Shown here: positions 8,387 through 64,000 of the stretch, in pieces
Position numbering within the stretch: position 1 is the first letter of the stretch
Layout of the letters: the number at the start of each line of letters is the position of its first letter
Source: an uncultured virus (IMG/VR IMGVR_UViG_3300032931_000293)
Taxonomy: Duplodnaviria; Heunggongvirae; Uroviricota; Caudoviricetes
Length of the DNA: 64,000 nucleotides
IMG/VR virus record: IMGVR_UViG_3300032931_000293
Direction: 5' to 3' (one strand)
Translations under genes and position numbers: made by a program
Notes under the pieces: generated by a model
Database searches by the model: none
Told to the model about the DNA's origin: nothing
The model's input: only the letters and a program-made list of their open reading frames with translations

Positions 8387-8740
8387 ATGCACACTATAAT
8401 ATTAAAAAAAATAATAGAACACGTCCCGGAAGTATCTTATAAAATTGATGCTATTGACATCCACCCAAGTATGCTAAATGGACTAATTCCAATTTCAACA
8501 CCATGTTTCTTAAATGAAAAACGGAGGAATTCTACTTGTTCGTCTATTGGACTAGAATTACCTATAAGTATTAGTGACGTTGAGGGTAGCGAACTTTATG
8601 TTGTTTTTAATGCTATTGAGGAAATTATAAGATATAAATCTGAATGGAATTATCTATATAATATTACCATAATAGAAGATAGATTAAAAGAGGTTACTAA
8701 AGGATTACCGGGAATCAAAGTAATTATAAGAGGGGCTTAA
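8387..8740 (+). CDS. Hypothetical protein
   Basis: RBS; first gene of operon. Confidence 0.6.
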   Translation: MHTIILKKIIEHVPEVSYKIDAIDIHPSMLNGLIPISTPCFLNEKRRNSTCSSIGLELPISISDVEGSELYVVFNAIEEIIRYKSEWNYLYNITIIEDRLKEVTKGLPGIKVIIRGA

Positions 8741-10017: not shown

Positions 10018-10095
10018 GGAGTTCTTCGTTATTTTAGATGATGACTTGATTTTGGACTTAAATGACTTATAATTTCCTCAAATAAAAGGGAAATT

Positions 10096-11556
10096 ATGGA
10101 TAAACTTGAAGCACTAAAACATTATTTTGGATATGATTCGTTTAGATCTGGTCAAGGGGAAATTATTGATGCTATTTTTGATCCTAAAGTAAATGGCGTT
10201 TTAGCCGTATTGCCCACTGGGTCAGGAAAATCAATTATTTACCAAATATCGGCTTTATTATCTAAAAATATTACTATAGTTGTTAGTCCGCTTATTTCCT
10301 TGATGAAAGATCAAGTAGACGGTATGAAGCAAAGAGGAATATCGGCAGAATTTTATAATTCATCTTTAAAAGATGAAGAAAAAGCCGATATAATGGATAA
10401 ATTGAGAAATAATAAAATAAAAATTCTTTATGTTGCGCCTGAAAGATTTGAAGATACAAATTTTATGGAAATTCTTAAAGAGAATAAAATTTCCTTATTT
10501 GCTATAGATGAATCACATTGTATATCATCTTATGGTCATAATTTTAGACCGGCATATCGCAAAATACGTAAGGCAATTTTTGAATTGAAGCCAAGCCAAG
10601 TAGTTGGATTAACTGCCACGGCAACTAAAAAAGTTCAACAAGATATTTGTAATCAATTGGGTGCTCCAAATGCTAAAAAGTTTATTATGGGATTTTTTAG
10701 GCCGGATTTAAAAATAGATATAATAAGATGCTTTTCGGATAGATTTGAAAAAATAGTAGACGATATAATGTGCTATCATGAGGATGGAATTAAGACTGGT
10801 ATAGTATATGTTGGCAAAAGAAAAGATGCCGAGACTATTGTAAACATTCTTAAAAACGAACATGAAATTAATGCTATGTTTTACCATGCCGGAATGGAAG
10901 ACGAGGATAGAACCGAGATACAAAATAAATGGTTTAAAGAGGGTGGCGTAATTGTTTGCACAACCGCAATGGCAATGGGAATTGACAAACGTGATGTCCG
11001 TTTTATTCTTCACGCATATGTTCCTAGTAGTATCGAAGATTATTATCAACAAATAGGAAGAGCCTCAAGAGATGGACTTGGGGCAGATTGTAGGATGTTC
11101 GTTGATCTTTATGAAGATACGAGATTTTTAAATTGGATGATTGATGCGAGTTATCCAAAGCCCGAAGTAGTTGAAAAGTTTTGGAAGTATGTTAATAATA
11201 TATCAAGGGATAATGATGGGATTATCAAACAAACTCAAGAGGAAATGGCTAGGAGTGCGGGAATTAATCCTCTATTTGTTGGTGGGTGTGTCGGTGTTCT
11301 CAAAAAGAATAGCCTTATTAATATGGTTGAACGGGGTAAGTACGAAGTAAATTACTTTGATAACTACTTACAAGCCCCCCTTGATTTTGAAGCATTGAAA
11401 CAACTTAGAAAATCACAACAAGATAAAATGCTTGAAATTATTGACTTCATTGAGGATAAGAAGACTTGTAGAATGGTAAAAATATTAAATTACTTTGATG
11501 AAAAAGATTCTAAACCATGTGGACATTGCGATATATGTAGAAAGGCAAAGAAATGA
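10096..11556 (+). CDS. recQ: RecQ-family DNA helicase
   Basis: PTGSGKS, DESHC, GHNFRP, TATA, QQIGRASRDG, C-terminal Zn site CGHCDIC. Confidence 0.9.
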   Translation: MDKLEALKHYFGYDSFRSGQGEIIDAIFDPKVNGVLAVLPTGSGKSIIYQISALLSKNITIVVSPLISLMKDQVDGMKQRGISAEFYNSSLKDEEKADIMDKLRNNKIKILYVAPERFEDTNFMEILKENKISLFAIDESHCISSYGHNFRPAYRKIRKAIFELKPSQVVGLTATATKKVQQDICNQLGAPNAKKFIMGFFRPDLKIDIIRCFSDRFEKIVDDIMCYHEDGIKTGIVYVGKRKDAETIVNILKNEHEINAMFYHAGMEDEDRTEIQNKWFKEGGVIVCTTAMAMGIDKRDVRFILHAYVPSSIEDYYQQIGRASRDGLGADCRMFVDLYEDTRFLNWMIDASYPKPEVVEKFWKYVNNISRDNDGIIKQTQEEMARSAGINPLFVGGCVGVLKKNSLINMVERGKYEVNYFDNYLQAPLDFEALKQLRKSQQDKMLEIIDFIEDKKTCRMVKILNYFDEKDSKPCGHCDICRKAKK

Positions 11557-35569: not shown

Positions 35570-36848
35570 TTGTGGCAAGGAAACCCAATGGATTTATCCG
35601 TTGGGAGGAATTGCCACCCTTTCTAAAACTTATTCTACCACAAAGAAAAAGAAAGTCAAAAGATTTTTCCGAAAAGTGGTATAATTGATTATAAATATAG
35701 TATGAAAGGAGGAAAAGATGAAGTTATCAATTAAGTGTAAAATACTACCAAACGAAAAACAACATCAAGAACTCCTTAATGTTATGAAAACATTTAATCT
35801 TGCTTGTGATTGGATAAGCCAAAAAGCATTTGAAACTAAAACATATAATAAAGTCAATCTACATAAAATAGTTTATTACGAAGTTAAACAAAGATTTAAC
35901 TTATCAAGCCAATTGGCAGTTAGAGCAATTGGAAAAGTAACCGATTGTTATAAAAATTGGAAACAGAAAAATAAAGTATTATCGTTTAGAGAATTAGGTT
36001 CAGTTGACTACGATTCAAGAATTTTAACTATTAAACAAGATAGTATTTCTATAATGGGTATGGGTAAACGAATTAAATTACCATATCGTTGTAAGAAAGA
36101 ATTAAGTAATTTTGATTTAAGTTGTCAATCAGAATTAACTTACGATAAAGTTAAAAATAAGTTTTATATTACATTCTTTGCCGAAACAAGTGAGGAAGTT
36201 CCAATTAAAACAAATAAATTTTTAGGTGTTGACTTGGGAATAGTCAATCTTGCTACTTGCTCTGATGGTGAAGTAATTTCCGGTGAAAAAATAGAAAGTT
36301 ATAGAAAGAAAATAACAGGATTGAAGGCAAGATTACAAGCAAAAAGTAGTAAGTCGGCAAAAAGACATTTGAAGAAAATAAGTAAAAAGGAGACAAGTTA
36401 TAAGAAAGATGTAAACCATTGTATAAGCAAGAAGTTAGTCCAAAAAGCAAAGACACTTAAAGTTGGGTTGAAATTAGAAGACCTTAACTTTAAGAAACAA
36501 GTTCCGCAAAAAGGTTGGACTAAAGAATGGAAAGATAGTAATGCTCGCAGAGGTAAGTGGGCTTTTGGTCAATTAAGGCAATTTATTGATTACAAGGCTA
36601 AACTTGCCGGAGTTCCTGTCCTATATATTAATCCGGCGTATACTAGCCAAAAATGTAGTAATTGTGGTCATACTTGCGAAGAAAATAGACTTTCTCAAAG
36701 TGAGTTCGTTTGTATACAATGTGGTTATTCTGCTAATGCCGACTACAATGCTTCAGTAAATATTTCTAGGGCTGAAATCAACCAGCCTATTGTAGACATT
36801 CGCAAGAGTGATTTACAAACACAATCCCTTTAGGGGTTGGGTAGTTGA
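35570..36848 (+). mobile_element. Non-autonomous IS200/IS605 (IS1341-like, TnpB-only) element; ends approximate
   Basis: Left hairpin 35572-35617 with TTTA loop, right hairpin CAATCCC-TTTA-GGGGTTG then GGTAGTTGA; opposite strand to flanking operon; no tnpA in window. Confidence 0.7.
35718..36833 (+). CDS. tnpB: TnpB RNA-guided endonuclease
   Basis: RuvC I GVDLG, RuvC II LEDL, YTSQKCSNCG/CIQCG Zn finger, RuvC III NADYNAS. Confidence 0.9.
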   Translation: MKLSIKCKILPNEKQHQELLNVMKTFNLACDWISQKAFETKTYNKVNLHKIVYYEVKQRFNLSSQLAVRAIGKVTDCYKNWKQKNKVLSFRELGSVDYDSRILTIKQDSISIMGMGKRIKLPYRCKKELSNFDLSCQSELTYDKVKNKFYITFFAETSEEVPIKTNKFLGVDLGIVNLATCSDGEVISGEKIESYRKKITGLKARLQAKSSKSAKRHLKKISKKETSYKKDVNHCISKKLVQKAKTLKVGLKLEDLNFKKQVPQKGWTKEWKDSNARRGKWAFGQLRQFIDYKAKLAGVPVLYINPAYTSQKCSNCGHTCEENRLSQSEFVCIQCGYSANADYNASVNISRAEINQPIVDIRKSDLQTQSL

Positions 36849-38428: not shown

Positions 38429-39145
38429 TTACTTTGTCCTTATTGTATGCTCACGATCATATGCGGCCCTTCCTATTGTATTCTTGATCGTCTTTAAGTC
38501 TTTTTTAGTTCTACCACAATCTTTGGAAGTTATTTTGAATGCTTTAAACGAGTTTTCCATTTCAACCGCATGAGTCCATATCTTCCAAAACAAATTCTTC
38601 TTTGACCTTGAGGATCGAGTTGACGCCAATACAACTTTTCCTCTATTAGCATACTTTACTATTTGGAAATTAGAATCCCAAAATTCTTGAAGTTCCTTTT
38701 TGTTACAATATGCTACTTCGTCAATAAGTAGAACGTCTATTTTTAATCCACAAGAATATGCGGTATTAGGAGTTGCAACAATTATTTTTGAACCATTACT
38801 AAATTCTATTCCTGTGCTATCCCATCTTGTAACACTAATTTTTAGATAGTCGGGAGCATTTAAATATAATGATTTTAATCCATCTAATATATTTTTAGTC
38901 ATTACCTTTTTAGCACATGCAAGGAATATAGTAGTATTCGTCTTTTTAAATGCCTCGGTAAGTGCTATAAACTCCAAAATTAAACTTTTTCCACTTTGCC
39001 TAACCCCTTGAATTATCTTACATTCACTCGACTCCTCTATAATTTCTTTTTGTTTTTTGTTAAGTCTACAAATAGTTCCCATATAATTTTTAAAATACGT
39101 ATAAGAAAGTATTTCATGTGTTAATAAATCATATATAATTGGCAT
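38429..39145 (-). CDS. Stand-alone terminase large-subunit-like ATPase domain (no nuclease domain)
   Basis: GVRQSGKS Walker A, IEFSNGSKI, LLIDEVAY Walker B, LAST motif; 238 aa. Confidence 0.75.
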   Translation of the reverse strand: MPIIYDLLTHEILSYTYFKNYMGTICRLNKKQKEIIEESSECKIIQGVRQSGKSLILEFIALTEAFKKTNTTIFLACAKKVMTKNILDGLKSLYLNAPDYLKISVTRWDSTGIEFSNGSKIIVATPNTAYSCGLKIDVLLIDEVAYCNKKELQEFWDSNFQIVKYANRGKVVLASTRSSRSKKNLFWKIWTHAVEMENSFKAFKITSKDCGRTKKDLKTIKNTIGRAAYDREHTIRTK

Positions 39146-51962: not shown

Positions 51963-52270
51963 GGCTAAAATTCCGCCGCCAAAAAAATTTTTTAAATTAG
52001 ACATATACACAAAAAAATTTGATAATCCTAAAATTAGTCCACTGGTCTAGACCCCCATTTTTTAAGCCTATCTATGTCTATAAACACTGTCCAGATAACG
52101 ATTTATGCCTTTTAACCCCCTATTAATTACCCAACTAACTACCCAATTTAATAGTACCTTCCAAGATACTCCCAATTATCTTCCCACCAATTCCCCCTTG
52201 AGTGGTGTATGATACACCCACTATGTATTTTCCCTCTTGACATTCCTTTCCCGTATCTACAATGTCCCTT

Positions 52271-52582
52271 ATGAGCAACACCTATCCTCTTCCTCTTGCG
52301 CAGGCCAATCTTGTTCGTTGGTTGGACAAGCGTGTACCTCTCACGGCTGGTGACGTTACCCTTAGCATCGAGGAACGTTCCAAGTTAATCACGATGATCT
52401 ACAATGGTAGCATTCCAATTTTCATTAGGAAGGATTGCGAGGATAGTTATTCATTGATAGTTGATGAGGGTAAGGGGTCAATTGAGGACTTTTATGTGCT
52501 TGAGGCTAACGTATGTGGTGACAATATTTGTCAGGTGATGGAAGACAATTCAATTCGTTTTAGTCAATGGAAGATGGCTTGA
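52271..52582 (+). CDS. Small early protein, leaderless
   Basis: ATG 7 nt after TACAAT; stop inside the next -35 box. Confidence 0.6.
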   Translation: MSNTYPLPLAQANLVRWLDKRVPLTAGDVTLSIEERSKLITMIYNGSIPIFIRKDCEDSYSLIVDEGKGSIEDFYVLEANVCGDNICQVMEDNSIRFSQWKMA

Positions 52583-52611
52583 CATCCTCTAAAGTCACTT
52601 AGGATACACAT

Positions 52612-52797
52612 ATGGACAACATACAAGTCGCTCTCAATAAGATCCAAGCTTTTAAGCGAGGTGAGCGGATGATAGTATCTGGGGCATGGTTGGATGTGCT
52701 ATCTGATCTTGATCCCGATTTAGCTTGCAAGGTGAAGAGTATTCCGAATCCTGACCGAGTGGGCTTGTTGGATCAATACGTGGCTTGGATTGGCTAA
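52612..52797 (+). CDS. Small early protein, leaderless
   Basis: ATG 6 nt after TAGGAT. Confidence 0.6.
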   Translation: MDNIQVALNKIQAFKRGERMIVSGAWLDVLSDLDPDLACKVKSIPNPDRVGLLDQYVAWIG

Positions 52798-52960
52798 AAA
52801 GGGGCTTGAGTAGCTTTTGAGTAGCTTTTGAGTAGCTCTTAAACCCTTAAGGGTTAGGAAGCTACCTTGAAGCCCTTGAGTAGTGTGTGATACAGTCAAT
52901 AAGAACCTATCTTGACATTCATTTCCGATCTACTATAAAGCCACTTACAAGGAGCCTACT

Positions 52961-53086
52961 ATGACATTCCATGAGTTTTTCGGTGATGGTGAGGTTATTA
53001 GTGCGATGGTAACGGTTGGTATAATTTGTATTGCGATGATTACTCCTAACATTTGTGTTGCAATTCGTCGGATTGGTCGGAAGTGA
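52961..53086 (+). CDS. 41-aa membrane peptide
   Basis: AAGGAG RBS; hydrophobic core. Confidence 0.5.
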   Translation: MTFHEFFGDGEVISAMVTVGIICIAMITPNICVAIRRIGRK

Positions 53087-53235
53087 CAAGTTTTGTCATA
53101 GGGATAGTTGTTGGTATTGTAGCCTATCGAGTAGTTATGGAGAAGCTTAGAGCTATTTTCAAGTAACTTTGTAAGCCCTCTAAGGGGGCTTGACTTTTTT
53201 CCCCATCTATTAGGATATACTCAAGGAACCCAACC

Positions 53236-53487
53236 ATGATCCCTATTCTTTTCTTTATCTTTCTTAGTATTGCGGTAGTTTCGTTTATTACGGCACTTAT
53301 AAATCTATTGCTAGGTGCTAGGAGGATCCAGAACATGGCATGGAATGCAGATTTTAGGGACAGTAATGGTACAATTAGCAAGACATTTTTGATTCATATT
53401 ATTTGTGCAATTTTCTATGTAATTAGTAGTATTGGGACGGCCATTCTTGGTATTGCTTGGATAGTTCAAGCGATCAAGGGGGTTTGA
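53236..53487 (+). CDS. Two-TM membrane protein
   Basis: Promoter, AAGGA RBS, two hydrophobic helices. Confidence 0.6.
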   Translation: MIPILFFIFLSIAVVSFITALINLLLGARRIQNMAWNADFRDSNGTISKTFLIHIICAIFYVISSIGTAILGIAWIVQAIKGV

Positions 53488-53488
53488 C

Positions 53489-53671
53489 ATGAATTACATT
53501 AAGGTTAATGACGATGATGATGGGGTTGTGATTGTTGAGGATTATGAGGGTGGCATTAAGTCATTTTCGTACAACGGTGGTTACGAGAAGAAGCAAGCCC
53601 GAAGAGCGGGAGAGAAGTTGGCGGAACGGGTTGCAAAGGAGAAGGGATGCGATTGGGGATGCAACTATTGA
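53489..53671 (+). CDS. Small early protein
   Basis: Stop inside the next -35 box. Confidence 0.55.
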   Translation: MNYIKVNDDDDGVVIVEDYEGGIKSFSYNGGYEKKQARRAGEKLAERVAKEKGCDWGCNY

Positions 53672-53700
53672 CTTTCTTTGAAGGTTGATAGGATACTATT

Positions 53701-53868
53701 ATGATTAAATACTCTGAGATTGAGCATCTTCCTTTGGATCATCCTTTGATGCTTCAGTTTATGAAGCAAGAGAGGGATCTTGAGGTTTACAAGGAGACTT
53801 CTAGGGATTGTGGTATGGATGAAGAGTCAATGGAATATTTCAATCGATATGTTGCGGGAGACAAGTAG
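53701..53868 (+). CDS. 55-aa leaderless protein
   Basis: ATG 6 nt after TAGGAT. Confidence 0.55.
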   Translation: MIKYSEIEHLPLDHPLMLQFMKQERDLEVYKETSRDCGMDEESMEYFNRYVAGDK

Positions 53869-53921
53869 CCTCTTGACTTCCGATCCTTCCGCATACACTT
53901 TCATTCATAAGGAAACATACC

Positions 53922-54101
53922 ATGCGATTCCCGGTTACGGTTTGGTTTGACAACGGAAACAAGGTCAAGTGTGAGAATGACAAGGATCTCAAGAATGAAA
54001 TCCTTAATGCTCATTCGGAGCAAATCTTTGCCGAATCAATCCATGATGCGGATGGGAAGGACCTTGGATGCCATTGGAGTGTGAAGATTGTTCCACTTTG
54101 A
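53922..54101 (+). CDS. 59-aa protein
   Basis: Promoter 53873, AAGGA RBS. Confidence 0.55.
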   Translation: MRFPVTVWFDNGNKVKCENDKDLKNEILNAHSEQIFAESIHDADGKDLGCHWSVKIVPL

Positions 54102-54114
54102 AGTAATCTTTTAG

Positions 54115-54255
54115 TTTTATGCTACTACGAGGTAGAAGCCTCGATTGAGAATAAAGCATAGGTCCGAAAGGAAATCCCTTTGCCGAGTAGATTCCCGAAA
54201 GGTAAAGCCAGAAGGATACCCGACCCCGAGCGAAAGCCCAGGGTTGTTTTTGTTT
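54115..54255 (+). ncRNA. Candidate structured RNA (GAAA tetraloops, loop-E-like motif)
   Basis: Stems TATGCT/AGCATA, CGAGG/CCTCG, TCC-GAAA-GGA, CTTTGCC/GGTAAAG, CGACCC/GGGTTG, T tail. Confidence 0.5.
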
Positions 54256-54415
54256 GATTTGGTGTATCACACACTGCTCAAGGGGATGTCCTCTTGAATG
54301 TCTGGTATTGCCAGGTTGTAAGTTGCTTTATAGTAACTTGTTATGCTTTTAAGTTACTTTGAATGTCCTTAAAGATGTCCTATTGACAAGTTGAGTTGAT
54401 GTGTTAGGATATGAG

Positions 54416-54470
54416 CCGCTATCACTATGAACGTGAGCAGAAGCCCTAGGTGTGTCGCCTAGGGTTTTTT
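54416..54470 (+). ncRNA. Candidate sRNA of about 55 nt
   Basis: Own promoter 54383-54410 and terminator CCCTAGG/CCTAGGG-T6. Confidence 0.5.
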
Positions 54471-54506
54471 GTTTGACTTTATCGAGTGGCTTGATATGAT
54501 ATGAAT

Positions 54507-54650
54507 ATGAGACATCAAGAACTTGCTTCGGGATACGCTACTTACGACGTTCAGGACTGCAAGTCGGCTCGAAAGTCGATTCGATACTATAAGCGTAAGG
54601 CCCATAAGGCTTTACGGCAGATCCGCAAGAAGGAAATAAACGAGGAATAA
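54507..54650 (+). CDS. 47-aa basic leaderless protein
   Basis: ATG 6 nt after TATGAT; K/R-rich. Confidence 0.55.
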   Translation: MRHQELASGYATYDVQDCKSARKSIRYYKRKAHKALRQIRKKEINEE

Positions 54651-54653
54651 AAC

Positions 54654-54860
54654 ATGACTCTTTCGCCTGCATTTATTGAGACATTGAAGGTTATTGCTAA
54701 GAAAAAGACTTGGCAAGACAAAGATGATGAAAACGGTGAATATTTTAACCCTTATGATTGGTGCGGTGGTAACTTTAATGATGCATATGAGGGTGGTGTA
54801 GTTACAGGAGAAATTGAAATGGCTAGAACCGTCCTTGAAGAACTAGGGATTGACTTTTAA
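54654..54860 (+). CDS. Small early protein
   Basis: GGNFNDAYEGG...GE..AR motif; RBS. Confidence 0.6.
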   Translation: MTLSPAFIETLKVIAKKKTWQDKDDENGEYFNPYDWCGGNFNDAYEGGVVTGEIEMARTVLEELGIDF

Positions 54861-54882
54861 GGAAGCTCATTAAGATACTATT

Positions 54883-55089
54883 ATGAGCTACGAACTTCGT
54901 TCCGCCGACTTCCAAAATGTAATCTTCACGGCATCTACATATGATGATATGTGGAAGCAACTTATGGATTTCAAGGATGCACAACTTGATGGTAATATTG
55001 ATGGACTCATTATCTGTAATACTATCACCAAGGAATGGGATTATGCTTGGAGGGTTGCAATCAACCACAAGGATTTGTTGGTTTCATGA
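54883..55089 (+). CDS. Small leaderless protein
   Basis: ATG 6 nt after TAAGAT. Confidence 0.6.
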   Translation: MSYELRSADFQNVIFTASTYDDMWKQLMDFKDAQLDGNIDGLIICNTITKEWDYAWRVAINHKDLLVS

Positions 55090-55310
55090 GCTACGCCCTT
55101 TGGAAGAAATTGAAGTCACTTGATTATGAGATCGCTATGAAGGATCTTGACATCAATGATGAAATGGTTAATCTTCCATTCCCGGTTGGTAGGATTGCTT
55201 TCAAGATGTTCAAGGACCATCGTGGAGGTGGTTATGATGTCCTTTATTGGACATATACGCATACCGGACCCGGATCAAATAAAACAACTTACACGATTTG
55301 GAACAAATGA
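55086..55310 (+). CDS. Small early protein
   Basis: ATGA overlap. Confidence 0.5.
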   Translation: MSYALWKKLKSLDYEIAMKDLDINDEMVNLPFPVGRIAFKMFKDHRGGGYDVLYWTYTHTGPGSNKTTYTIWNK

Positions 55311-55492
55311 ACAACAATGAAATTCCCCGCCGTCTAAGTTCAAGTACCAATCCTTTGTCTAATGAAAAGCAAAAATGGTTAAATTGGTGCTACGATTATG
55401 GGAGTGATATTCGTGATTCGCTTCCTCCCGGACCCGAAAAGGAAAAAATGACTAATCTCTTGGCCGGACTCATCCTTGTAGATGGTGAATAA
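55307..55492 (+). CDS. Small early protein
   Basis: ATGA overlap. Confidence 0.5.
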   Translation: MNNNEIPRRLSSSTNPLSNEKQKWLNWCYDYGSDIRDSLPPGPEKEKMTNLLAGLILVDGE

Positions 55493-55493
55493 A

Positions 55494-55748
55494 ATGATTA
55501 AAACTCTTAGTAACGTTCATTATCATATGGACATGGGTTGCGGAATTGATGTATGGCGCATTGTTGGTGATGATGAAGAGGGTAGAACCAAGTCGATTTC
55601 GACCCCCGTCAAAATGGATGAGAAAAACGACATTCTAACTACCGCTAGTGGTTCGGTGTATCATATCACTAACTATAGTGGTAGTCGTGAAATGTTCATT
55701 GCCCAAGTGGTGAAGGACATTGCAAACGGAGGGTATGAAGTCCGTTGA
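55494..55748 (+). CDS. Small early protein
   Basis: T.SGSVY motif; stop inside the next -35 box. Confidence 0.55.
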   Translation: MIKTLSNVHYHMDMGCGIDVWRIVGDDEEGRTKSISTPVKMDEKNDILTTASGSVYHITNYSGSREMFIAQVVKDIANGGYEVR

Positions 55749-55793
55749 CTTCTACTCTCAAGCCGCTATAAAGCTACTCACAAGGAAACTATC

Positions 55794-55997
55794 ATGGCCA
55801 CCATTAGACTTAATGCGTTTGACAAGGATTCAAGCGGATCCTACTCGGAAACGGTTGAAGTTTCCTCCCTTGATGAACTCAAGGCAAAGGAAAAGGTGTT
55901 TGATGGTGCGGTTCCCTTCACTCGGTTCTATTTTGACCATGAAGTGTTGGAGTGTAACGATGAAGCTATTGAACAATATTGTGATGAATTGATTTGA
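55794..55997 (+). CDS. Small acidic early protein
   Basis: Promoter, AAGGA RBS. Confidence 0.6.
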   Translation: MATIRLNAFDKDSSGSYSETVEVSSLDELKAKEKVFDGAVPFTRFYFDHEVLECNDEAIEQYCDELI

Positions 55998-55998
55998 C

Positions 55999-56169
55999 AT
56001 GAGGGGTTATATTGATGCCCCCGATGGTACTCGATACTACGGGGAAGGAAAAACTTCTAAAGATATATACAATGAGGTAAATCGTCAAGTGCTTCAGATG
56101 CATGATGGTAAGATTCCGTCTAGTTGGTTAGGAAAAGCATCAACATTGGTTATTACGGATAAGCAATGA
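55999..56169 (+). CDS. 56-aa protein
   Basis: Fills the gap; ATGA overlap with next gene. Confidence 0.45.
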   Translation: MRGYIDAPDGTRYYGEGKTSKDIYNEVNRQVLQMHDGKIPSSWLGKASTLVITDKQ

Positions 56170-56402
56170 TCCATCAAACGATTGGAGTGTATCCTAATGG
56201 TGATTACAAGATGAACGGAGTACCTTCCGAGCATCTCGAAAATCATATCGAGTATAATAAATTATGGCGATGGGGTCGGGCTTTAATTGTTGATGGTGTA
56301 GTGGTTTATAAGGGAAATGTCCATGAGGAAACCCTTAAAATGGTACTCGATAAGATTCCGTCAATGTTCAAGCCGACTAAGGATACACAACCTTATCATT
56401 GA
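56166..56402 (+). CDS. Small early protein
   Basis: HIEYN..WR.GRAL.VDG; stop in TTGAC. Confidence 0.6.
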   Translation: MIHQTIGVYPNGDYKMNGVPSEHLENHIEYNKLWRWGRALIVDGVVVYKGNVHEETLKMVLDKIPSMFKPTKDTQPYH

Positions 56403-56517
56403 CAAGTAGCTTCGTGGGTGAAATCCCACCCGAACCTTGAGTAGTGTATGATACACATTATCAAGTTACTTGGAATTGACTACTTGACTTTTACTCTGAA
56501 GCTACTAGGATACTATT

Positions 56518-56754
56518 ATGAGCAACACCATCGATCTCCGCAACTGTGTCAAGGGGCAGAAGCTCCGTTCTTCGCAAGGTGCAATCCTCACCTATTCTAA
56601 GCCATTGGAAGAGGGTAACTTCTACGATCATGAAGTGATCTACCCCGATGGTAGCTTCGGAACTCGCATCCATGATGGGCATGTGTATCGTAATCCCGAC
56701 AAGCGGATTCCCGAGGATCATGATATCGTGGAAATCCTCCCGATTGATGCTTGA
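56518..56754 (+). CDS. Small leaderless protein
   Basis: ATG 6 nt after TAGGAT; stop inside the next -35 box. Confidence 0.65.
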   Translation: MSNTIDLRNCVKGQKLRSSQGAILTYSKPLEEGNFYDHEVIYPDGSFGTRIHDGHVYRNPDKRIPEDHDIVEILPIDA

Positions 56755-56784
56755 CATTCCCAATCCCCTTGTATAGTCATACCC

Positions 56785-56853
56785 ATGAAGACAATCATCA
56801 ACATCATCACCAACATCATCGTGATTTTCGGTAACTCGGAAATGGAAGGATAA
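56785..56853 (+). CDS. 22-aa Ile-rich leaderless micropeptide
   Basis: ATG 7 nt after TATAGT; ends on the RBS of the next gene. Confidence 0.4.
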   Translation: MKTIINIITNIIVIFGNSEMEG

Positions 56854-56854
56854 C

Positions 56855-57319
56855 ATGCAAGCCAACGGAAATGCGCCAATCAAGGTTAAAGTGGGAAGCC
56901 GCTACATTGACCTTATGAACACTGTCGTAAAGATCAAAAAGGTCACAAAGACGGGTTGGTTCATTTCCGATCAGTCAAGCTACCGTGAAGATGGTACTTG
57001 CTACCACGGTGCCGCATTGAATCTCTATAAGGAAATTGAAGATACTAAGGATGTTGATTCGTCAATTCATGATATCCTAAATAGTAATGCGGATAAATTT
57101 GTTAATTATATCGGTAGCTTGCGGGATCGTTAGCAAGATGAAAAAGAGCATGAAGATATCGCCAATTATATGAGTGCTATTAATGTGTTCACTCAAACTA
57201 CTATCCCCAACGTAACGGAAGTCAAGGCTAGTAAGTGGTCGGTATCATTTAAGATGCCAAACAATCGTACATATTCATATTACCTTAAAGGTAACAACGG
57301 CGGATTGAAGGAAATATGA
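56855..57319 (+). pseudogene. Gene interrupted by in-frame TAG at 57131-57133
   Basis: Frame stays open 61 codons past the TAG; LRDR*QDEKEHED context suggests a Trp codon. Confidence 0.55.
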
Positions 57320-57465
57320 TGGAAACATTTAGGGTAAATCAATCTGCTAAAAGGGCGTTGAAGATTCTCTTGGACAATTTTGAGAAACATGGTATTCCGG
57401 TTAATACGGATGTAATTGCCGAATTAGAATATATTATTTCCTCAACTACAGAATCTACTGAATGA
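57316..57465 (+). CDS. 49-aa protein
   Basis: AAGGA RBS, ATGA overlap. Confidence 0.45.
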   Translation: MMETFRVNQSAKRALKILLDNFEKHGIPVNTDVIAELEYIISSTTESTE

Positions 57466-57587
57466 ATCAAGTAGCCTTTTAATCCCTCATGGGCTTAGAA
57501 GCTCCCCTTGAATAGTGTATCATACATATTATCGAGTTACCTGGAATTATCCTCTTGACTTCCATTCCTACTTGCTAGGATACATTC

Positions 57588-57893
57588 ATGAGCCACAACC
57601 ATAAGAAGATCCGCCAGACCTCCACCGTGACCACCGCTTGCGAAATCTCTTTCGGAGTGGACAATATGCGCTATGGAACGGTGTGTGTTCCTATCGGTGC
57701 GGAAGTGGAGCGTTTCAAGGAAGGTGGAGTTATCTCGGATTGGTTCCTAGTTAACCCCGGCAAGTATTGTCCCGAAAGTGCCATGTTTGATGGTAAGCCA
57801 TCGCATGGATATATGTGGGATGCTACTTATAGGGGTATCCGTTTGCCATATGCCAATGTGAAGGACGGACATCCGAAGTTTTTTGTTGCTTGA
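57588..57893 (+). CDS. Small leaderless protein
   Basis: ATG 6 nt after TAGGAT; stop inside the next -35 box. Confidence 0.65.
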   Translation: MSHNHKKIRQTSTVTTACEISFGVDNMRYGTVCVPIGAEVERFKEGGVISDWFLVNPGKYCPESAMFDGKPSHGYMWDATYRGIRLPYANVKDGHPKFFVA

Positions 57894-57923
57894 CTTCTAC
57901 GCCTACCCTCTACAATCAAAACC

Positions 57924-58235
57924 ATGACCACCACCGCCATGCTCACTGCTAAAACCATCTTGAACCAAATCGGCTCCAATAGCCTCATGTGCCTTGGGGT
58001 TCCTCGCAATTCCATCTATGCTATTCCGGAAACTTCCGAGCATCTTGGAGGGGTTCAATTCAAGTTCACGAATTGTCCCAAGGTTCGTAATGGCACCGTC
58101 CGAGTGATTCTGATGCCGAATGATACATATAACGTTGAAATCCTCAACGTTCGTGGCCGGAAGATTGCCGAGTTTTCCGATGTGTATTGTGACAACTTGG
58201 GGCGTGATGGCGTGATTGAAGGTGTTACCGGTTGA
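57924..58235 (+). CDS. Conserved hypothetical phage protein, leaderless
   Basis: A.TIL.QIG...DTY.VE...DVYCD.L pattern; stop inside the next -35 box. Confidence 0.65.
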   Translation: MTTTAMLTAKTILNQIGSNSLMCLGVPRNSIYAIPETSEHLGGVQFKFTNCPKVRNGTVRVILMPNDTYNVEILNVRGRKIAEFSDVYCDNLGRDGVIEGVTG

Positions 58236-58264
58236 CATCGTAGGAAAGTCGCTAGGATACAATC

Positions 58265-58351
58265 ATGCGAAAGCCCTTCTACTGCTTCCGGAACCACCAA
58301 CTGGTGCTTAATAGCCGATGGAAGCGATTTGTCCTCGCCATTGGGGCTTGA
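58265..58351 (+). CDS. 28-aa leaderless micropeptide
   Basis: Spans exactly from one -10 (+6 nt) to the TGA of the next -35 box. Confidence 0.5.
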   Translation: MRKPFYCFRNHQLVLNSRWKRFVLAIGA

Positions 58352-58381
58352 CTTCCCTTTCCCACTCATTAGGATACTCAC

Positions 58382-58594
58382 ATGAGCATCACCGAAGACC
58401 TCGCCACCAACGCACCCCTTGAAGTCAAGGCTACCGTCTTTGCCGAGTATCACAATGACCGTGAAGTAGCTTACAAGGCGGTTGAAAACTACTGCAATGA
58501 TAATTTGATCTATTCGGATGGATCCATTGCAAAGGTCATGGAAATGATCTACGAGAATGTTTCATTTAATGTTGCTTTTGAAGTGGAAGGATAA
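58382..58594 (+). CDS. Small acidic leaderless protein
   Basis: ATG 6 nt after TAGGAT. Confidence 0.6.
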   Translation: MSITEDLATNAPLEVKATVFAEYHNDREVAYKAVENYCNDNLIYSDGSIAKVMEMIYENVSFNVAFEVEG

Positions 58595-58647
58595 TAACTC
58601 TTGACTTCCTCAAAAGACTTGTAAGCTACTCTCAAGGAACCTAAGCC

Positions 58648-58803
58648 ATGATGATCGTCAAAAAGGATGAAACCTACTGCCTTGGTCTTGAAGTCCCGGA
58701 AGGTTGGACTCTTGTCAAGGATGGGTTTACTTCCAATGTAGAGGCTCAACAGTGGCTCTGGAATGAAATCGATTCCATTCCCGAAGGCTACGGATTGCCC
58801 TAA
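58648..58803 (+). CDS. 51-aa protein
   Basis: Promoter 58601, AAGGA RBS. Confidence 0.5.
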   Translation: MMIVKKDETYCLGLEVPEGWTLVKDGFTSNVEAQQWLWNEIDSIPEGYGLP

Positions 58804-58919
58804 AGGGATTATGAGTAGCTCGGAAAGCTACTCCACCCCTTGAGTAGTGTGTGATACGGATTATCGAGTAACTTGGAATTAACTTCTTGACATTCATTCC
58901 TAGTTATTATAATATTCAT

Positions 58920-59174
58920 ATGAAACTTTATGCTCCATACGAAAACAGTATTACGATTGGTCAATGGTCGGGATGTCGCACATTGCACCGTGAGGATGGA
59001 TCATCCGTTCATGGTGTTTTGATTGCACCAAGTATTCATGATGTTTTCTTTGATGGGATTGAAGCATTGCGATTGTACGATTTGCACCGTAATGCATTGA
59101 AGGTTGGCACGGTTTCCATGTATTGTGAAACTAAACGGGATAATTGGAAAAAGGGAATTGAATTACCCTCTTGA
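58920..59174 (+). CDS. Small leaderless protein
   Basis: ATG 6 nt after TATAAT; stop inside the next -35 box. Confidence 0.6.
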   Translation: MKLYAPYENSITIGQWSGCRTLHREDGSSVHGVLIAPSIHDVFFDGIEALRLYDLHRNALKVGTVSMYCETKRDNWKKGIELPS

Positions 59175-59218
59175 CAATCCTTCCTAGTCGTTAGGATAAA
59201 TCCCATAAGGAAAACACT

Positions 59219-59434
59219 ATGCGATTCCAAGTCAAAGCATGGAAGGATAACGGGGAACCATATAAGGATGGGACAAGTAGTGTTCAGTTGATTCGGAATA
59301 TATCCGCCATGGATGCACGGCATGCCGTGATGGCAACCTTTCCCAATGCAATGTTTTGTGGATATGTTGGTCATCGTGCTAAGTATTGGGTTCCAACCCT
59401 TCACAATGGCCATGTTATAGCCTATAAGGCTTGA
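59219..59434 (+). CDS. Small early protein
   Basis: AAGGA RBS; stop in TTGAC. Confidence 0.6.
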   Translation: MRFQVKAWKDNGEPYKDGTSSVQLIRNISAMDARHAVMATFPNAMFCGYVGHRAKYWVPTLHNGHVIAYKA

Positions 59435-59572
59435 CTTTTCTTCCTAAACCTTCGAGTAGCCTTCTAAGCCCTTACTGGTTTGGAAGCTACCCTTGAGTAG
59501 TGTGTGATACGGATTATCGAGTAACTTGGAATTAACTACTTGACATTGATTGGAAGGCATTAGACTAAGAGC

Positions 59573-59878
59573 ATGGAAACGATCAAGACTCCCCATGACC
59601 TCAAGTTGAAGGATGGAACTCCGATTCCCAAGGGCAGCACGTTGCTGTTTGTCCGTCACTACGCTGAAGGAACGCTTCAGACCGTGGGAGTTTTCTCCTA
59701 TAAGGGTCGTGAGCTACGCATGCGCTATCGGCATGTTATTAAGGTTCCTAGCGTCAAGAGAATTGATAAGTGGGTTTATGATTCCGTTTGCGAAAGTGTT
59801 TTTGGAAACACTTGTGAACCGGATGGTTATGGGAGTGAAGGCGAGCCTTCATGGTTGCTTGCCTTGGGCTTGGTTTAA
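59573..59878 (+). CDS. Conserved hypothetical phage protein, leaderless
   Basis: W..DSVC....CEPDG....PSWL..LG motif. Confidence 0.65.
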   Translation: METIKTPHDLKLKDGTPIPKGSTLLFVRHYAEGTLQTVGVFSYKGRELRMRYRHVIKVPSVKRIDKWVYDSVCESVFGNTCEPDGYGSEGEPSWLLALGLV

Positions 59879-59915
59879 CCTCTTGACATCCACGGAAACG
59901 TGATAGGATACATAC

Positions 59916-60437
59916 ATGAACACCAACACCCTCCCCGTCACCAATGAGCCGAGCCTTGCGAGTGTTCCCATTGATTTGCCTTTGGGATTGGTTAAAATGC
60001 TCTCTTACAAAGGGACTTTTTGTTCCATTAAGATGCAACGGCCTATGAAAATGCGGAAGGGCCGGGCTGAAATTGTTAAGATTTCACAATTCACCGTGCG
60101 AGTCGGGGTTTCTTATGATTCTCAAATCGGGGTAAAGGAACGTCGGGAAAATGGGGAGTTGCCGGAAGAAAATGCCGGCTTAATCGGTCGGGAATGGATT
60201 ATCCCCAATTATATTTTGCGGAGCCTTAAATCCGGAAAAATGATGATCCGAGTGACTCCGGTCCATAATGATGCTTGTAAGCGATTGGTTGAGTATATTC
60301 GCAATGGTAAGTCAATCTCAAAGGGTGAAGCGGAGATAGATTGCCTTGCAAGTGAATTTGCGGATCGTGGTGATTGGAAAGGCGCAATGGATATAACGGC
60401 GGAATACATTACAGAAGTAAATGGTGAAGTAGTTTGA
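59916..60437 (+). CDS. Early protein, leaderless
   Basis: ATG 6 nt after TAGGAT; terminator follows. Confidence 0.65.
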   Translation: MNTNTLPVTNEPSLASVPIDLPLGLVKMLSYKGTFCSIKMQRPMKMRKGRAEIVKISQFTVRVGVSYDSQIGVKERRENGELPEENAGLIGREWIIPNYILRSLKSGKMMIRVTPVHNDACKRLVEYIRNGKSISKGEAEIDCLASEFADRGDWKGAMDITAEYITEVNGEVV

Positions 60438-60441
60438 AGTA

Positions 60442-60480
60442 AATAAAAGTGGCTTAGAGTAATTCTAAGCCACTTTTATT
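60442..60480. terminator. Bidirectional terminator, perfect 17-bp inverted repeat
   Basis: AATAAAAGTGGCTTAGA/TCTAAGCCACTTTTATT. Confidence 0.8.
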
Positions 60481-61620
60481 ATTAGATATATACTGTGTGA
60501 TACATTGCTCAAGGAAAACCAATGGTTCTTTTTCGTAATATGGTATTTCAATAAGATGGATATTGTTTTTATTGCAATACTCTTTTTTAATATTATCATT
60601 ATATTTAATTCGTTCAAATGTTTTTTCACCACCCCAACCTTTAATTGGTTTAAAATGTTGTTCTCCTTGATATTCAATTGCTATCTTGTAATTAGATATA
60701 TAAAAGTCAAATGGTAATTTATTTTTCTTTCCTCTACAATCATCAAAGGACTTTTGCGGTTCAAATAATATATTTTTTCTTTTTAAATAATTATATATTA
60801 GTTTTTCCCCTTTTGATTTTTTACATATTGGGCATCCGCATTGTATTCCAATATGACTAAGAGAATTTTGTAAGAATTCTCCATGAATTGGACAAATTAT
60901 TATTCCTTTTGTTTGAGCATTTACATAAATAAATTTATCGTAGCGATAGAGATTATTATGAATTTTATTAGCTCTTTCTATAAATTCTTCAAGTGTCTTT
61001 CTAGTTTTATTTCCATTACTATCCAAATAACAGTTTCTACACCCACAATGTGAAAGATGTTGGTCGGGTGGTTGCTCAAATATCCCATGTTTACTACATA
61101 TTATTTTTATTGGTGTTTGGGAGTCAATGTATTGGGATACACTATAATCATATCTATCTCCGTGAATCTCTTTTGCTTTTGAGATAAAATCCAATAAATT
61201 TCCTCTAGTTTTTAGTACTTTTTCCATTATTCCACATTTTCTACATCCCTTTCCGTATATATGAGTGTGAGCCGTTTGTTCAAAAATTCCATGGATAGGG
61301 CAAATTATCTTGACTTTTCTTTCTGATCCTATATATTCCACCAAACTATAGTCATACTTACTTTTATGTTTTAAAGTGGAAATGTCAATAAACTTTTGTG
61401 TTGTGAGTGTTGTTTTTTCAATATTTACTAATTTTCCACATTTTTTACAACCATATTTCCTATGACAATCGGGAGTTTGTTCAAATTCTCCATGAATTGG
61501 ACAAATTATCTTGATTTTAGTGTAAGCATTCTTATAAACAACTAAAGAATAATCGTACTTATTTTTGTGAAATAATTTAGATCTATTAATAAATTCATCT
61601 TGTGTTAACGCTTTAGGCAT
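60454..61620 (-). CDS. Homing endonuclease with DUF723-like Zn repeats and C-terminal PD-(D/E)xK domain
   Basis: Four YDYS..Y......IICPIHG.F.Q repeats; LPFDFY...IEYQGEQH; AT-rich, opposite strand. Confidence 0.8.
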   Translation of the reverse strand: MPKALTQDEFINRSKLFHKNKYDYSLVVYKNAYTKIKIICPIHGEFEQTPDCHRKYGCKKCGKLVNIEKTTLTTQKFIDISTLKHKSKYDYSLVEYIGSERKVKIICPIHGIFEQTAHTHIYGKGCRKCGIMEKVLKTRGNLLDFISKAKEIHGDRYDYSVSQYIDSQTPIKIICSKHGIFEQPPDQHLSHCGCRNCYLDSNGNKTRKTLEEFIERANKIHNNLYRYDKFIYVNAQTKGIIICPIHGEFLQNSLSHIGIQCGCPICKKSKGEKLIYNYLKRKNILFEPQKSFDDCRGKKNKLPFDFYISNYKIAIEYQGEQHFKPIKGWGGEKTFERIKYNDNIKKEYCNKNNIHLIEIPYYEKEPLVFLEQCITQYISNNKSGLELL

Positions 61621-61771
61621 ATATTCTCCTGATAGGTAAAAGAAGTGAGAGGTAAGCCGTACTCATCAGGTTTCGGGCAGGGGTAATTAAGCCTTGTCCC
61701 TCTCATTCCTTATTTATTATACCACTTGACTTATCCAAAATAACTCATATACTTCCTCCAAAGGAACCTAT

Positions 61772-61984
61772 ATGAACCGTAAGCAGGCACTTATTGAAGA
61801 TCATAAGGAGTTACTCGAAATCCGCTTGAAGAGTATTAAGAGGGATTGGAGTAACCGTAATAAGCCTCGATTTGATAGAGATTTGCTTAAGTGGCTTATT
61901 GGTGAAGCAAAAACCCATAAGCACATGATTGTGCAACTTTCCGAGTTGCCGAATGCGCCATTTGACTTTTGTGGAAGCTGGTGA
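61772..61984 (+). CDS. Small early protein
   Basis: Promoter 61726, AAGGA RBS. Confidence 0.6.
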   Translation: MNRKQALIEDHKELLEIRLKSIKRDWSNRNKPRFDRDLLKWLIGEAKTHKHMIVQLSELPNAPFDFCGSW

Positions 61985-62158
61985 TCCTTTTAGTTCAACA
62001 ATTGGACATTGTGACATACCTTGCTATAGTTAATAGCAAGGTTATGGTTGTTTACGAGTGGGAGAATAACCTGGCATTGCACTTTCATATCATTGAAAGG
62101 AAATTAGTGCTTGACACCGAGACAATTGAAGTAGACTTAGAAACATAAGGAGTATATT

Positions 62159-62356
62159 ATGTGGATAAACATTAAAGAGAAACTACCTGAAATCCATAAA
62201 GAAGTTTTGGTTTGGGTTGATGGTCATCGAAGGCCTGCTTGGAGTAATAACTATGCACTAGTTGCATATATGGAAAGTGATGGAGTGTTTTGGGAAGAGA
62301 TGCATGACGAAATTGTTATTGGTGTCACTCATTGGATGGAATATCAAAAGCCTTGA
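62159..62356 (+). CDS. DUF551 protein
   Basis: WINIKEKLPE...VLV...VTHWM. Confidence 0.75.
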   Translation: MWINIKEKLPEIHKEVLVWVDGHRRPAWSNNYALVAYMESDGVFWEEMHDEIVIGVTHWMEYQKP

Positions 62357-62397
62357 CTTCCTCAAAAGCCACATAAGCTACTCTCAAGGAAACCATC

Positions 62398-62631
62398 ATG
62401 CAAGATTCTATCATCGTCTATCGTAATCCTATGGAAAAGGCTATGTGGGAAAGCGGGAATATGCACCTTGGTATCATTTTCGCTATTACCATGGGAATTA
62501 CCTTTTTCCTAGTTTACAAGGGACTTGAAAAGATTACCGGGGAGAAGTGGAATCAACCTAATTGGTTCCTTTGGGTTAGTGGAACCCTTGGAGTTATTGC
62601 GGGTGTTGCCGCTTGTTGGTTTATCGGCTGA
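62398..62631 (+). CDS. Two-TM membrane protein
   Basis: IIVYRNPME...W; two hydrophobic helices. Confidence 0.6.
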   Translation: MQDSIIVYRNPMEKAMWESGNMHLGIIFAITMGITFFLVYKGLEKITGEKWNQPNWFLWVSGTLGVIAGVAACWFIG

Positions 62632-62654
62632 CCTAAAACACAAGGAACATTATA

Positions 62655-62951
62655 ATGCGTATTATTATTTGTCTTATTATTTCTATTGCGATTACCGGTT
62701 GTGCCCCTAGCATCGGGGAAGTTCAGCAAGTAGGTATCACTGACCAAAAAAACGTTATTGAACGAAATGCACCTAAGCCTCGATTTACTATCATATATCA
62801 AGGCAAGTTTTCAGGTGGTGAAGCGGATTTTAAGACATATCGAGCAATTTATACGATTATTGACAATTCAACGGGTCAAGAGTTTCTTGGAATTGAAGGG
62901 GTTGGAGTTTCTAGTTTGACTTCAAGCGGCAAGACTTCTTGCGAAAAGTAA
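62655..62951 (+). CDS. Lipoprotein
   Basis: ITGC lipobox; IIDNSTGQEFL. Confidence 0.6.
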   Translation: MRIIICLIISIAITGCAPSIGEVQQVGITDQKNVIERNAPKPRFTIIYQGKFSGGEADFKTYRAIYTIIDNSTGQEFLGIEGVGVSSLTSSGKTSCEK

Positions 62952-62986
62952 CTTGACATTCCATAAAGCAACATAGAATCAAACCC

Positions 62987-63217
62987 ATGAGCAATCCAAC
63001 TAAAGAATATCTTGAAGGTGAAACTCGGGCAATGGAGGATGATGCGGGAGTTAGTATGCAAAGTCCTTTCGCAAATCCATACGATGAACGGGATGAGCCG
63101 GAAAAGGCTTTCGAGTGGCAATGTGGTTATAACAATTTTAACCATAACCGTAGGAAGAATATGATGGCACAGATGGAGAGTGAAGGAAGTTGGTACGACC
63201 CATACGATTCCCCTTGA
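62987..63217 (+). CDS. Small acidic leaderless protein
   Basis: ATG 7 nt after TAGAAT; NPY......W..GY; stop inside the next -35 box. Confidence 0.6.
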   Translation: MSNPTKEYLEGETRAMEDDAGVSMQSPFANPYDERDEPEKAFEWQCGYNNFNHNRRKNMMAQMESEGSWYDPYDSP

Positions 63218-63246
63218 CTTCTCGAAAAAGACTATAGAATAAGACA

Positions 63247-63565
63247 CATAACCCACAAGGAAGAAACCTTAAGATGCGAATAACAAGCCTGTCCTAACTA
63301 TCTCCTACGATGGTTAGAGGGGCAAAGAGCGTAGGATAGGCTTCGAGTGTTGGATGGTTCCTATGCTCCTCGAAGCGACTTGCTTTCAGCCGGATGGTTT
63401 AGTCAAGCCATTGAACCGAGGATAAGCTTTCATTGGTTAGCAAGGGATTAAAGGCCCTACCCACTTGCCTAGAAAACAAGGGTGATAAGTGAAGCCGAGG
63501 GAATAAGTTGACTTGCTCCAAAGGGCATATAACTAGACGGGGGTTGCTTGGCTCCAACCCCCCGC
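63247..63565 (+). ncRNA. Candidate structured ncRNA of about 320 nt
   Basis: Promoter 63214-63240, no + ORF, consecutive stems, terminal CGGGGGTTG/CAACCCCCG hairpin. Confidence 0.6.
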
Positions 63566-63598
63566 TTGACTTCTTGAAAAAGACTATAGAATAACTCT

Positions 63599-63803
63599 CG
63601 TTGAAAACGATATAGAGTGGCTTAAGAGTGGGACGAGAATCATATGTTGCTAGTACCAACACCATGATATGGATAATCGGCGGGTATCAAACCATAATCC
63701 TATCTAATCAATAGGCAATGTCACTTGGGATAATATCCCTAACACTTCCGGGTGGAACAACCGATAACGGAAACTCAATCCTACTCCTAAGCTACTTTAT
63801 ATC
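63599..63803 (+). ncRNA. Candidate multibranch ncRNA closed by a 25-bp helix
   Basis: Promoter 63566-63592; 63609-63633 pairs with 63779-63803 (21 Watson-Crick, 3 G.U, 1 mismatch). Confidence 0.6.
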
Positions 63804-63900
63804 TTGACAATCCATGAACCGCCTTGGGTCAGAATGACCAAAGTATGTAGCACGATTCATACTAATGTACTCTACCCCAAGACCGTTCATAGATTGCCAA
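63804..63900. repeat. 97-nt imperfect hairpin
   Basis: 31-nt arms with 24 Watson-Crick pairs plus inner AGTATG/CATACT. Confidence 0.75.
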
Positions 63901-64000
63901 AAGTAATCTACCATTCAGGTCATTGAAAGTAGCTTGACTAGCTATCAAGTGAAGGTATGATGCAAAGCGGTTAGCTACTGCAAAGCATGACGTTCAATCC

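What the first reader, a model, noticed from the sequence alone, without database searches (positions are those of the whole stretch)
63566..63803. Second ncRNA candidate: multi-arm junction closed by a 25-bp helix, behind a near-duplicate promoter
Seen: the promoter (CTTGACTTCTTGAAAAAGACTATAGAATAA) differs by one base from that at 63213. 63609-63633 pairs with 63779-63803 and encloses hairpins ATCAT.TGTTG/CAACA.ATGAT, CCTAT/ATAGG, GGGAT/ATCCC and TTCCG/CGGAA. A third promoter at 63934 starts another apparently ORF-less transcript that runs off the window. Inference: a tandem cluster of structured RNAs, possibly decoys for RNA-binding defence proteins or partners of a protein encoded beyond the window.
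Basis: partly seen in the sequence, partly recalled or inferred. Interest (0 to 1): 0.72.

Follow-up and report, generated by a model that had tools for sequence, protein, structure and literature searches.

The report
Helix-sealed small RNA of giant phage
An uncultured large phage has, behind one of its own early promoters, a roughly 205-base stretch that codes for no evident protein and folds into a many-armed RNA sealed by a long double helix; it is probably a real small RNA gene, but no relative was found and its job is unproven.

Summary
The promoter and closing helix are real. 63609-63633 pairs with 63779-63803 (24 of 25 pairs; z about -5). The promoter belongs to this phage's early class (15-bp spacer), and it is the only one of 19 tested with no ATG in the next 43 nt; the inferred start is 63599/63600. 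The inner arms are weaker: interior energy is no better than shuffles, though perfect 5-bp helices are enriched (post hoc test). The near-duplicate promoter is not special, since protein cassettes have near-duplicates too. The third transcript cannot be called ORF-less from 39 bases. No Rfam match or homologue was found, so covariation and expression are untested. No reverse transcriptase was found in 48 of 51 long ORFs; about 7 kb more of the contig lies outside the window and could not be fetched. A related phage uses the same promoter class for tRNAs and carries helix-closed modules. Best reading: a stable early small RNA of an undescribed family, like T4 RNAC/RNAD, probably binding a host protein (inferred). 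Interest moderate.

The parts
63565..63592 (+). Early-class promoter: -35 TTGACT at 63566-71, 15-bp spacer, -10 TAGAAT at 63587-92; 29 of 30 identical to the promoter at 63213
63599..63600 (+). Inferred transcription start; leaderless genes of this promoter class have ATG 6-7 nt after the -10
   Evidence: inference, not measured
63600..63808 (+). Candidate small RNA, about 205-209 nt; 63600-04 may pair weakly with 63804-08
   Evidence: (in the MFE), absent from the MFE; no Rfam match
63609..63637 (+). 5' arm of the closing helix (25 bp plus a 3-bp extension)
63774..63803 (+). 3' arm of the closing helix
63639..63668 (+). Arm 1: two 5-bp stems with a 7-nt loop (P 0.45-0.76)
63668..63715 (+). 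Arms 2 and 3, alternative pairings unresolved (63668-72/63692-96 plus 63699-703/63711-15, or 63670-75/63701-06)
63727..63739 (+). Arm 4: 5-bp hairpin with a 3-nt loop (P 0.67-0.88)
63746..63772 (+). Arm 5 (P 0.65-0.82); 63721-25 could pair with 63751-55 to form an H-type pseudoknot (untested)
   Evidence: pseudoknot is inference
63802..63902 (-). Adjacent rod hairpin, probably a separate convergent unit (- strand z -10.2 with 5 G-U; + strand z -5.3 with 0 G-U)
63213..63565 (+). Upstream promoter and structured unit with an apparent H-type pseudoknot (63327-36/63359-68 and 63340-47/63369-76); separate finding
63933..63961 (+). Possible third promoter (16-bp spacer) over a palindrome; transcript runs off the window

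Best explanation
This is a stand-alone early small RNA gene of a large uncultured phage, inserted as a promoter-plus-RNA cassette in the variable early region. Shown in sequence: a promoter of the phage's class, no start codon behind it, and a 25+3-bp helix joining the two ends. Inferred: host RNA polymerase starts at about 63600. No intrinsic terminator follows, so the 3' end is made by trimming a read-through transcript back to the helix base, or by meeting the convergent rod unit. The sealed ends protect the RNA from exonucleases so that it accumulates. Its head of four to five short arms then works in trans as a binding surface (decoy or scaffold) for a host RNA-binding protein, most plausibly one of translation or RNA turnover, possibly of defence. 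I put about 0.7 on a real plus-strand RNA gene and about 0.4 on this whole mechanism.
For: Promoter class and spacer. Only promoter of 19 without an ATG in the next 43 nt. Helix unique on its strand and beyond shuffles. 3 G-U against 1 A-C on +. Excess of compatible 5-bp helices inside (post hoc). No terminator-like site found near 63800. In relative L001 (67% identity in the protein at 59916) promoters of the same type precede tRNA genes, probably including one split by a group I intron, and helix-closed modules occur at 8625-8696 (z -3.1) and 10042-10119 (z -5.7). The gene before the upstream RNA has a weak structural likeness to Rmf (under the tool's naming bar). Precedent for abundant phage RNAs of unknown function of this size: T4 RNAC/RNAD (PMC9697503, passages); PAK_P3 ncRNA1 of about 210 nt, processed (bioRxiv 2023.10.13.562163, passages).
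Against: No homologue, so no covariation. L001 lacks it within the 13 kb held. Interior energy equals shuffles. The minus strand folds as well by energy. Nothing identifies a protein partner or an antisense target: only 10-15-nt chance-level matches in the window.
Confidence: 0.4

Rival explanations
1. Punctuation or processing module: the helix is an RNase III-type stem or a 5' stabiliser at the head of a longer precursor, for example a tRNA cluster beyond the window, and the enclosed part has no function in trans.
For: No terminator after the helix; only the helix is thermodynamically significant; the relative has tRNAs behind such promoters; an RNase III substrate is a helix of about two turns (recalled).
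Against: A dedicated strong promoter directly in front and a further promoter at 63933 make a mere leader redundant; the interior is enriched in short perfect helices.
Confidence: 0.25
2. 5' domain of one larger non-coding RNA (400 nt or more, GOLLD/ROOL-like in setting) that runs off the window.
For: In the fold of 63600-64000 the first six bases pair with 63993-98; large phage RNAs lie beside tRNA genes (PMC9241854, passages).
Against: That pairing is only 6 bp; the rod favours the minus strand; no Rfam match.
Confidence: 0.12
3. A DNA-level inverted-repeat element (MITE-like or a swapped cassette remnant) with no selected RNA function.
For: 21 of 25 arm positions are exact complements; both strands fold; the unit sits between two CTTGAC boxes, like other cassettes.
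Against: No target-site duplication is visible; no second copy in the window; an intact promoter is correctly placed; G-U bias on + (weak, 3 to 1).
Confidence: 0.12
4. RNA partner of a reverse transcriptase or nuclease (retron- or DRT-like) encoded beyond the window.
For: Terminal inverted repeats enclosing several hairpins resemble the retron a1/a2 layout (recalled).
Against: No long msd-like hairpin inside the helix; no RT in 48 of 51 long ORFs; at least 197 nt of other structured DNA follow, not an RT gene.
Confidence: 0.06
5. mRNA for micropeptides: a 16-codon frame at 63664-63714 and a 29-codon frame at 63718-63807, the latter ending at the TGA of the next CTTGAC box as several protein cassettes do.
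For: Frames seen; the stop overlaps the box as in genes ending at 62356 and 63217.
Against: No AAGGA-type ribosome site as in neighbouring leadered genes; the frames lie inside a sealed structure; frames this short arise by chance. TAG read-through is unsupported: 7 of 79 long ORFs end in TAG, and the coverage gain without TAG as a stop (0.82 against 0.74) is no larger than that without TGA (0.84).
Confidence: 0.05

Closest known systems
T4 RNAC and RNAD (species 1 and 2) and other phage stable RNAs of unknown function, e.g. PAK_P3 ncRNA1
   Same: Phage-encoded small non-coding RNA of unknown function, 120-210 nt class (PMC9697503 and bioRxiv 2023.10.13.562163, passages); location of T4's pair in the tRNA cluster is recalled.
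   Different: No direct comparison with the T4 genes was made beyond blastn of the phage collection, which found nothing. T4's are classed as late and PAK_P3's lack their own start site; this one has an early-type promoter.
PeSL promoter-early stem-loop cassettes of T4-like phages (PMC4122927, abstract)
   Same: Near-identical early promoters bound swappable modules in a hypervariable region; relatives L001 and L002 differ in module content.
   Different: PeSLs are small terminator/promoter composites; here the cargo is a 200-nt folded RNA and no U-tailed terminator was found.
6S RNA (RF00013, RF01685)
   Same: About 190-200 nt, ends joined by a long closing stem.
   Different: No central bubble with a long terminal stem in the predicted folds; no Rfam hit up to E 10; no alignment with a 6S locus from the phylum of G001.
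Retron msr-msd RNA
   Same: Terminal inverted repeats around internal hairpins (recalled).
   Different: No msd-like long hairpin inside, no adjacent RT gene in the window.
GOLLD and ROOL large phage RNAs
   Same: Structured RNA in a slot where a relative carries tRNAs.
   Different: Much shorter as delimited by its helix; no Rfam match.

Membership tests
Any Rfam 15 family | Covariance-model score above gathering, or a credible E-value | tested here: not met
   0 hits in the window at gathering; 2 chance hits elsewhere in 61600-64000 up to E 10
6S RNA | Rod with a central bubble and a long terminal stem | tested here: not met
   Predicted folds are multi-arm; no similarity to L177
6S RNA | Binds sigma70 holoenzyme and templates pRNA | not testable with these tools
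   needs experiment
Retron ncRNA | a1/a2 terminal inverted repeats | tested here: met
   25-bp helix; not specific to retrons
Retron ncRNA | Long msd hairpin between the repeats | tested here: not met
   longest inner helices are 5-10 bp
Retron ncRNA | Cognate RT gene next to it | tested here: inconclusive
   none in 48 of 51 long ORFs; about 7 kb of the contig lies outside the window (length 71257) and was not seen
tRNA or tmRNA | Cloverleaf or tRNA-like domain | tested here: not met
   ARAGORN 0 genes; no alignment to 5 tmRNA loci
T4 RNAC/RNAD-like stable phage RNA | Discrete abundant RNA during infection | not testable with these tools
   no RNA holder listed
T4 RNAC/RNAD-like stable phage RNA | Located in or beside the tRNA cluster | tested here: inconclusive
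   no tRNA in the window; relative L001 has tRNAs behind the same promoter type
PeSL cassette | Conserved early promoter repeated between variable modules | tested here: met
PeSL cassette | Terminator stem-loop joined to the promoter | tested here: inconclusive
   an 8-bp GC hairpin precedes 63565 but has no U tract by the scan's rule
MITE-like element | Target-site duplication and multiple copies | tested here: not met
   flanks; single copy in the window; rest of the genome not held
Conserved structured RNA family (new) | Compensatory base changes among homologues | tested here: inconclusive
   no homologue found

The most novel reading that the evidence does not exclude
The founding member of a new RNA fold family used by a lineage of jumbo phages, possibly of Planctomycetota, as an early-made, nuclease-proof decoy that neutralises a host RNA-sensing defence or translation factor. 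It would sit in a head-to-head array of unrelated RNA modules swapped through duplicated promoters.
Probability: 0.18. Interest if true: 0.75.

Novelty: new member of a known kind. Interest (0 to 1): 0.42.

Why it matters
Large phages devote prime early promoters to RNAs whose jobs are almost all unknown; T4's RNAC and RNAD are still described as of unknown function (PMC9697503). A compact RNA with a defined promoter and sealed ends is easy to synthesise, probe and use as bait, so it is a practical entry to that question. If it proved a protein decoy it would add an RNA-based host-takeover or counter-defence route. With one sequence and no covariation it is, for now, a good candidate and no more.

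Tried and rejected
Whole genome: none held; L001 and L002 records not held for whole-record search. Rfam and ARAGORN: nothing. blastn against phages and plasmids: only 19-31-nt matches at E 2-8. Exact motif scans: 0 loci, 47 and 78 viral loci, 21 genome loci; none extends beyond its seed by alignment (125 of 125 scored) or by model R1 (best 8.9 and 13.6 bits against 272 for self). R1 rests on one sequence and is weak for distant homologues. R1 over 26 sources, over 101 genomes of the phylum of G001 and over G036: not found in those searched. Neighbour proteins as bait: none in viral contigs or genome contigs; 9 metagenome loci. A relative with 84% protein identity on a 386-kb contig exists but its DNA could not be reached; the single metagenome scan had gone on a neighbour protein, so the RNA was never searched there. 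Promoter-pattern scan gave 16 loci, each with a single 15-bp-spacer site and no shared proteins. Sequencing runs: no RNA holder listed; the one DNA run laid a 172-nt piece on a neighbouring gene, not on the RNA. Upstream unit as tmRNA: not found by ARAGORN or Rfam and no alignment with 5 tmRNAs. TnpB omega-RNA: no similarity to the tnpB region beyond chance. Supplements of PMC10690425: one motif not found in 3 of 6 readable files; 3 of those 6 and 3 larger files were not searched and could hold a related family. Paper searches showed no listing that describes this element; that is not proof of absence from print.

Full report
Setting. The window is part of a 71,257-bp contig of a large phage: a T4-like terminase domain, thymidylate synthase, DHFR, RNA ligase, methylases, homing endonucleases and TnpB. 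A relative with 84% identity in one core-region protein lies on a 386-kb contig, so a jumbo genome is likely (inference). From about 52,200 to 63,217 the + strand holds short genes, many with a promoter of their own. The finding lies at the end of this early region.

Promoter. 63565-63594 differs by one base from 63213-63242. Both read TTGACT-15 bp-TAGAAT. The short spacer is the rule here: 17 of 25 matches have 15 bp and 5 have 16, and relative L001 shows the same (8 at 15, 1 at 16). Among 19 such promoters, 11 are followed by ATG at 6-7 nt, 6 by ATG at 18-22 nt behind an AGGA site, 63213 by one at 33 nt, and 63565 by none in 43 nt. The leaderless genes place the start at 63599 or 63600 (inference). 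Near-duplicate promoters also precede protein genes (26 of 30 for 58600 and 62352), so the duplication reflects cassette shuffling as described for PeSLs (PMC4122927, abstract), not something peculiar to RNAs.

Structure. The closing helix has 21 Watson-Crick pairs, 3 G-U and 1 A-C, with probabilities near 1, and continues for 3 bp after a small loop. It is the only helix of that quality on the + strand of 64 kb and outscores 5 block shuffles (49 against 34-39). The whole folds with z -5.1. The interior is less certain. Its energy equals that of shuffles; sampled structures split among three to five arms, the commonest shape in 394 of 1000; the 63699-63715 hairpin has only about 0.3 probability; and a 10-bp helix 63721-30/63746-55 competes or forms a pseudoknot. 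In favour, five compatible perfect 5-bp helices occur in 2 of 2000 shuffles and 9 of 940 tiles, a statistic I chose after seeing the sequence. Energy does not fix the strand; the promoter and the G-U bias favour +.

Directly after the helix, 63802-63902 is a rod that folds at -52.8 kcal/mol on the - strand (z -10.2) and -30.2 on + (z -5.3), with 5 G-U pairs against 0. It is most simply a convergent unit whose 3' end meets this RNA's 3' end, although 5 to 0 is only suggestive and no clear minus-strand promoter lies in the window. The third promoter matches the 16-bp class, but 39 bases cannot show that its transcript lacks a frame, and an ATG at 63987 runs off the end.

Homologues. None was found by Rfam, blastn, four motif scans checked by alignment and by a one-sequence covariance model, or the model over 26 sources and 101 genomes. 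The phage family itself was not found in the viral and genome collections with four protein baits, so these blanks say little about conservation. The only informative relative, L001, lacks the RNA in the 13 kb held, but it has a promoter of the same type at 7911 followed by a group I intron within a probable tRNA, a further Rfam tRNA match, and another behind the promoter at 8515. It also has helix-closed modules at 8625-8696 and 10042-10119. Covariation and expression remain untested.

Host. 15-bp-spacer promoters are frequent in some genomes of the phylum of G001 (record titled Pirellula sp.): G036 has 42 against 19 with 17 bp and 1 in the reversed control, while most of the 41 genomes favour 17. 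Four genomes from other loci were uninformative, and no other phylum was sampled. A planctomycete host is a lead only.

Mechanism. Shown: promoter, absence of a start codon, sealed ends, no terminator-like site. Inferred: early transcription, 3' end by trimming or by convergence, stability from the helix, and action in trans through the short arms on a host protein. I give about 0.7 to a real RNA gene and 0.4 to this whole account. Rivals: processing or leader module 0.25, domain of a larger RNA 0.12, DNA-level repeat 0.12, RT partner 0.06, micropeptides 0.05. No RT was found in 48 of 51 ORFs of 130 aa or more; the three left out overlap other genes on the opposite strand.

Comparison. It resembles, in kind, the stable phage RNAs of unknown function: T4 RNAC/RNAD (PMC9697503, passages), PAK_P3 ncRNA1 (bioRxiv 2023.10.13.562163, passages) and phage K's long RNAs beside tRNAs (PMC9241854, passages). 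Candidate phage RNAs are known in bulk (10,006 in PMC10690425, passages; supplements only partly searched). It fails tested features of 6S RNA, tRNA/tmRNA, retron msd and MITEs. Features of retrons, 6S RNA, RNase III substrates and the T4 tRNA cluster are recalled, not read here. Earlier notes of this scan describe similar helix-closed arrays in other phages; they are unchecked leads, and they lower rather than raise the surprise.

Verdict. A real, promoter-driven, helix-sealed RNA candidate with no known family and no homologue in hand. New member of a known kind; interest 0.42.

Noticed in passing
window 63802-63902 (-): A rod hairpin of about 100 nt, the best long-range helix score on either strand of the window (61; z -10.2), head to head with the RNA studied. 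No Rfam match.
   Followed up: partly
window 63248-63565 (+): Unit with a clear H-type pseudoknot (10-bp and 8-bp stems), further short stems, an open frame of 13 codons from 63275 beginning Ala-Asn-Asn, and a terminal GC hairpin resembling a tmRNA T-arm region with an enlarged loop. Not detected as tmRNA; a degenerate tmRNA-like RNA is not excluded.
   Followed up: partly
window 52236-63592 (+): Early promoters with a 15-bp spacer and many leaderless genes; the same spacer is favoured in genome G036 and present in three others of 41 sampled from the phylum of G001.
   Followed up: partly
window 62987-63217 (+): 76-aa protein with weak structural likeness to ribosome modulation factor clusters (under the naming bar; no Pfam hit); two homologues.
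   Followed up: partly
window 63940-64000 (+): The last nine bases look like a tRNA T-loop preceded by an anticodon-like hairpin, but no D-arm can be drawn; possibly a degenerate tRNA-like element cut by the window end.
   Followed up: no
window 61630-61718 (+): Small three-way junction closed by a helix (z -2.3) just before the promoter at 61725.
   Followed up: partly
L001 7990-8620 (+): tRNA cluster with a group I intron (Rfam 53.5 bits) apparently inside a tRNA, and two atypical tRNAs missed by ARAGORN.
   Followed up: partly
L001 10451-13115 (-): A run of about ten short paralogous ORFs sharing a C-terminal motif like 'T.KGLW'.
   Followed up: no
window 35718-36833 (+): TnpB/Cas12f1-like gene; its omega-RNA was not examined.
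   Followed up: no
window 38429-39145 (-): Stand-alone 238-aa protein matching only the N-terminal ATPase part of a T4-like terminase.
   Followed up: no
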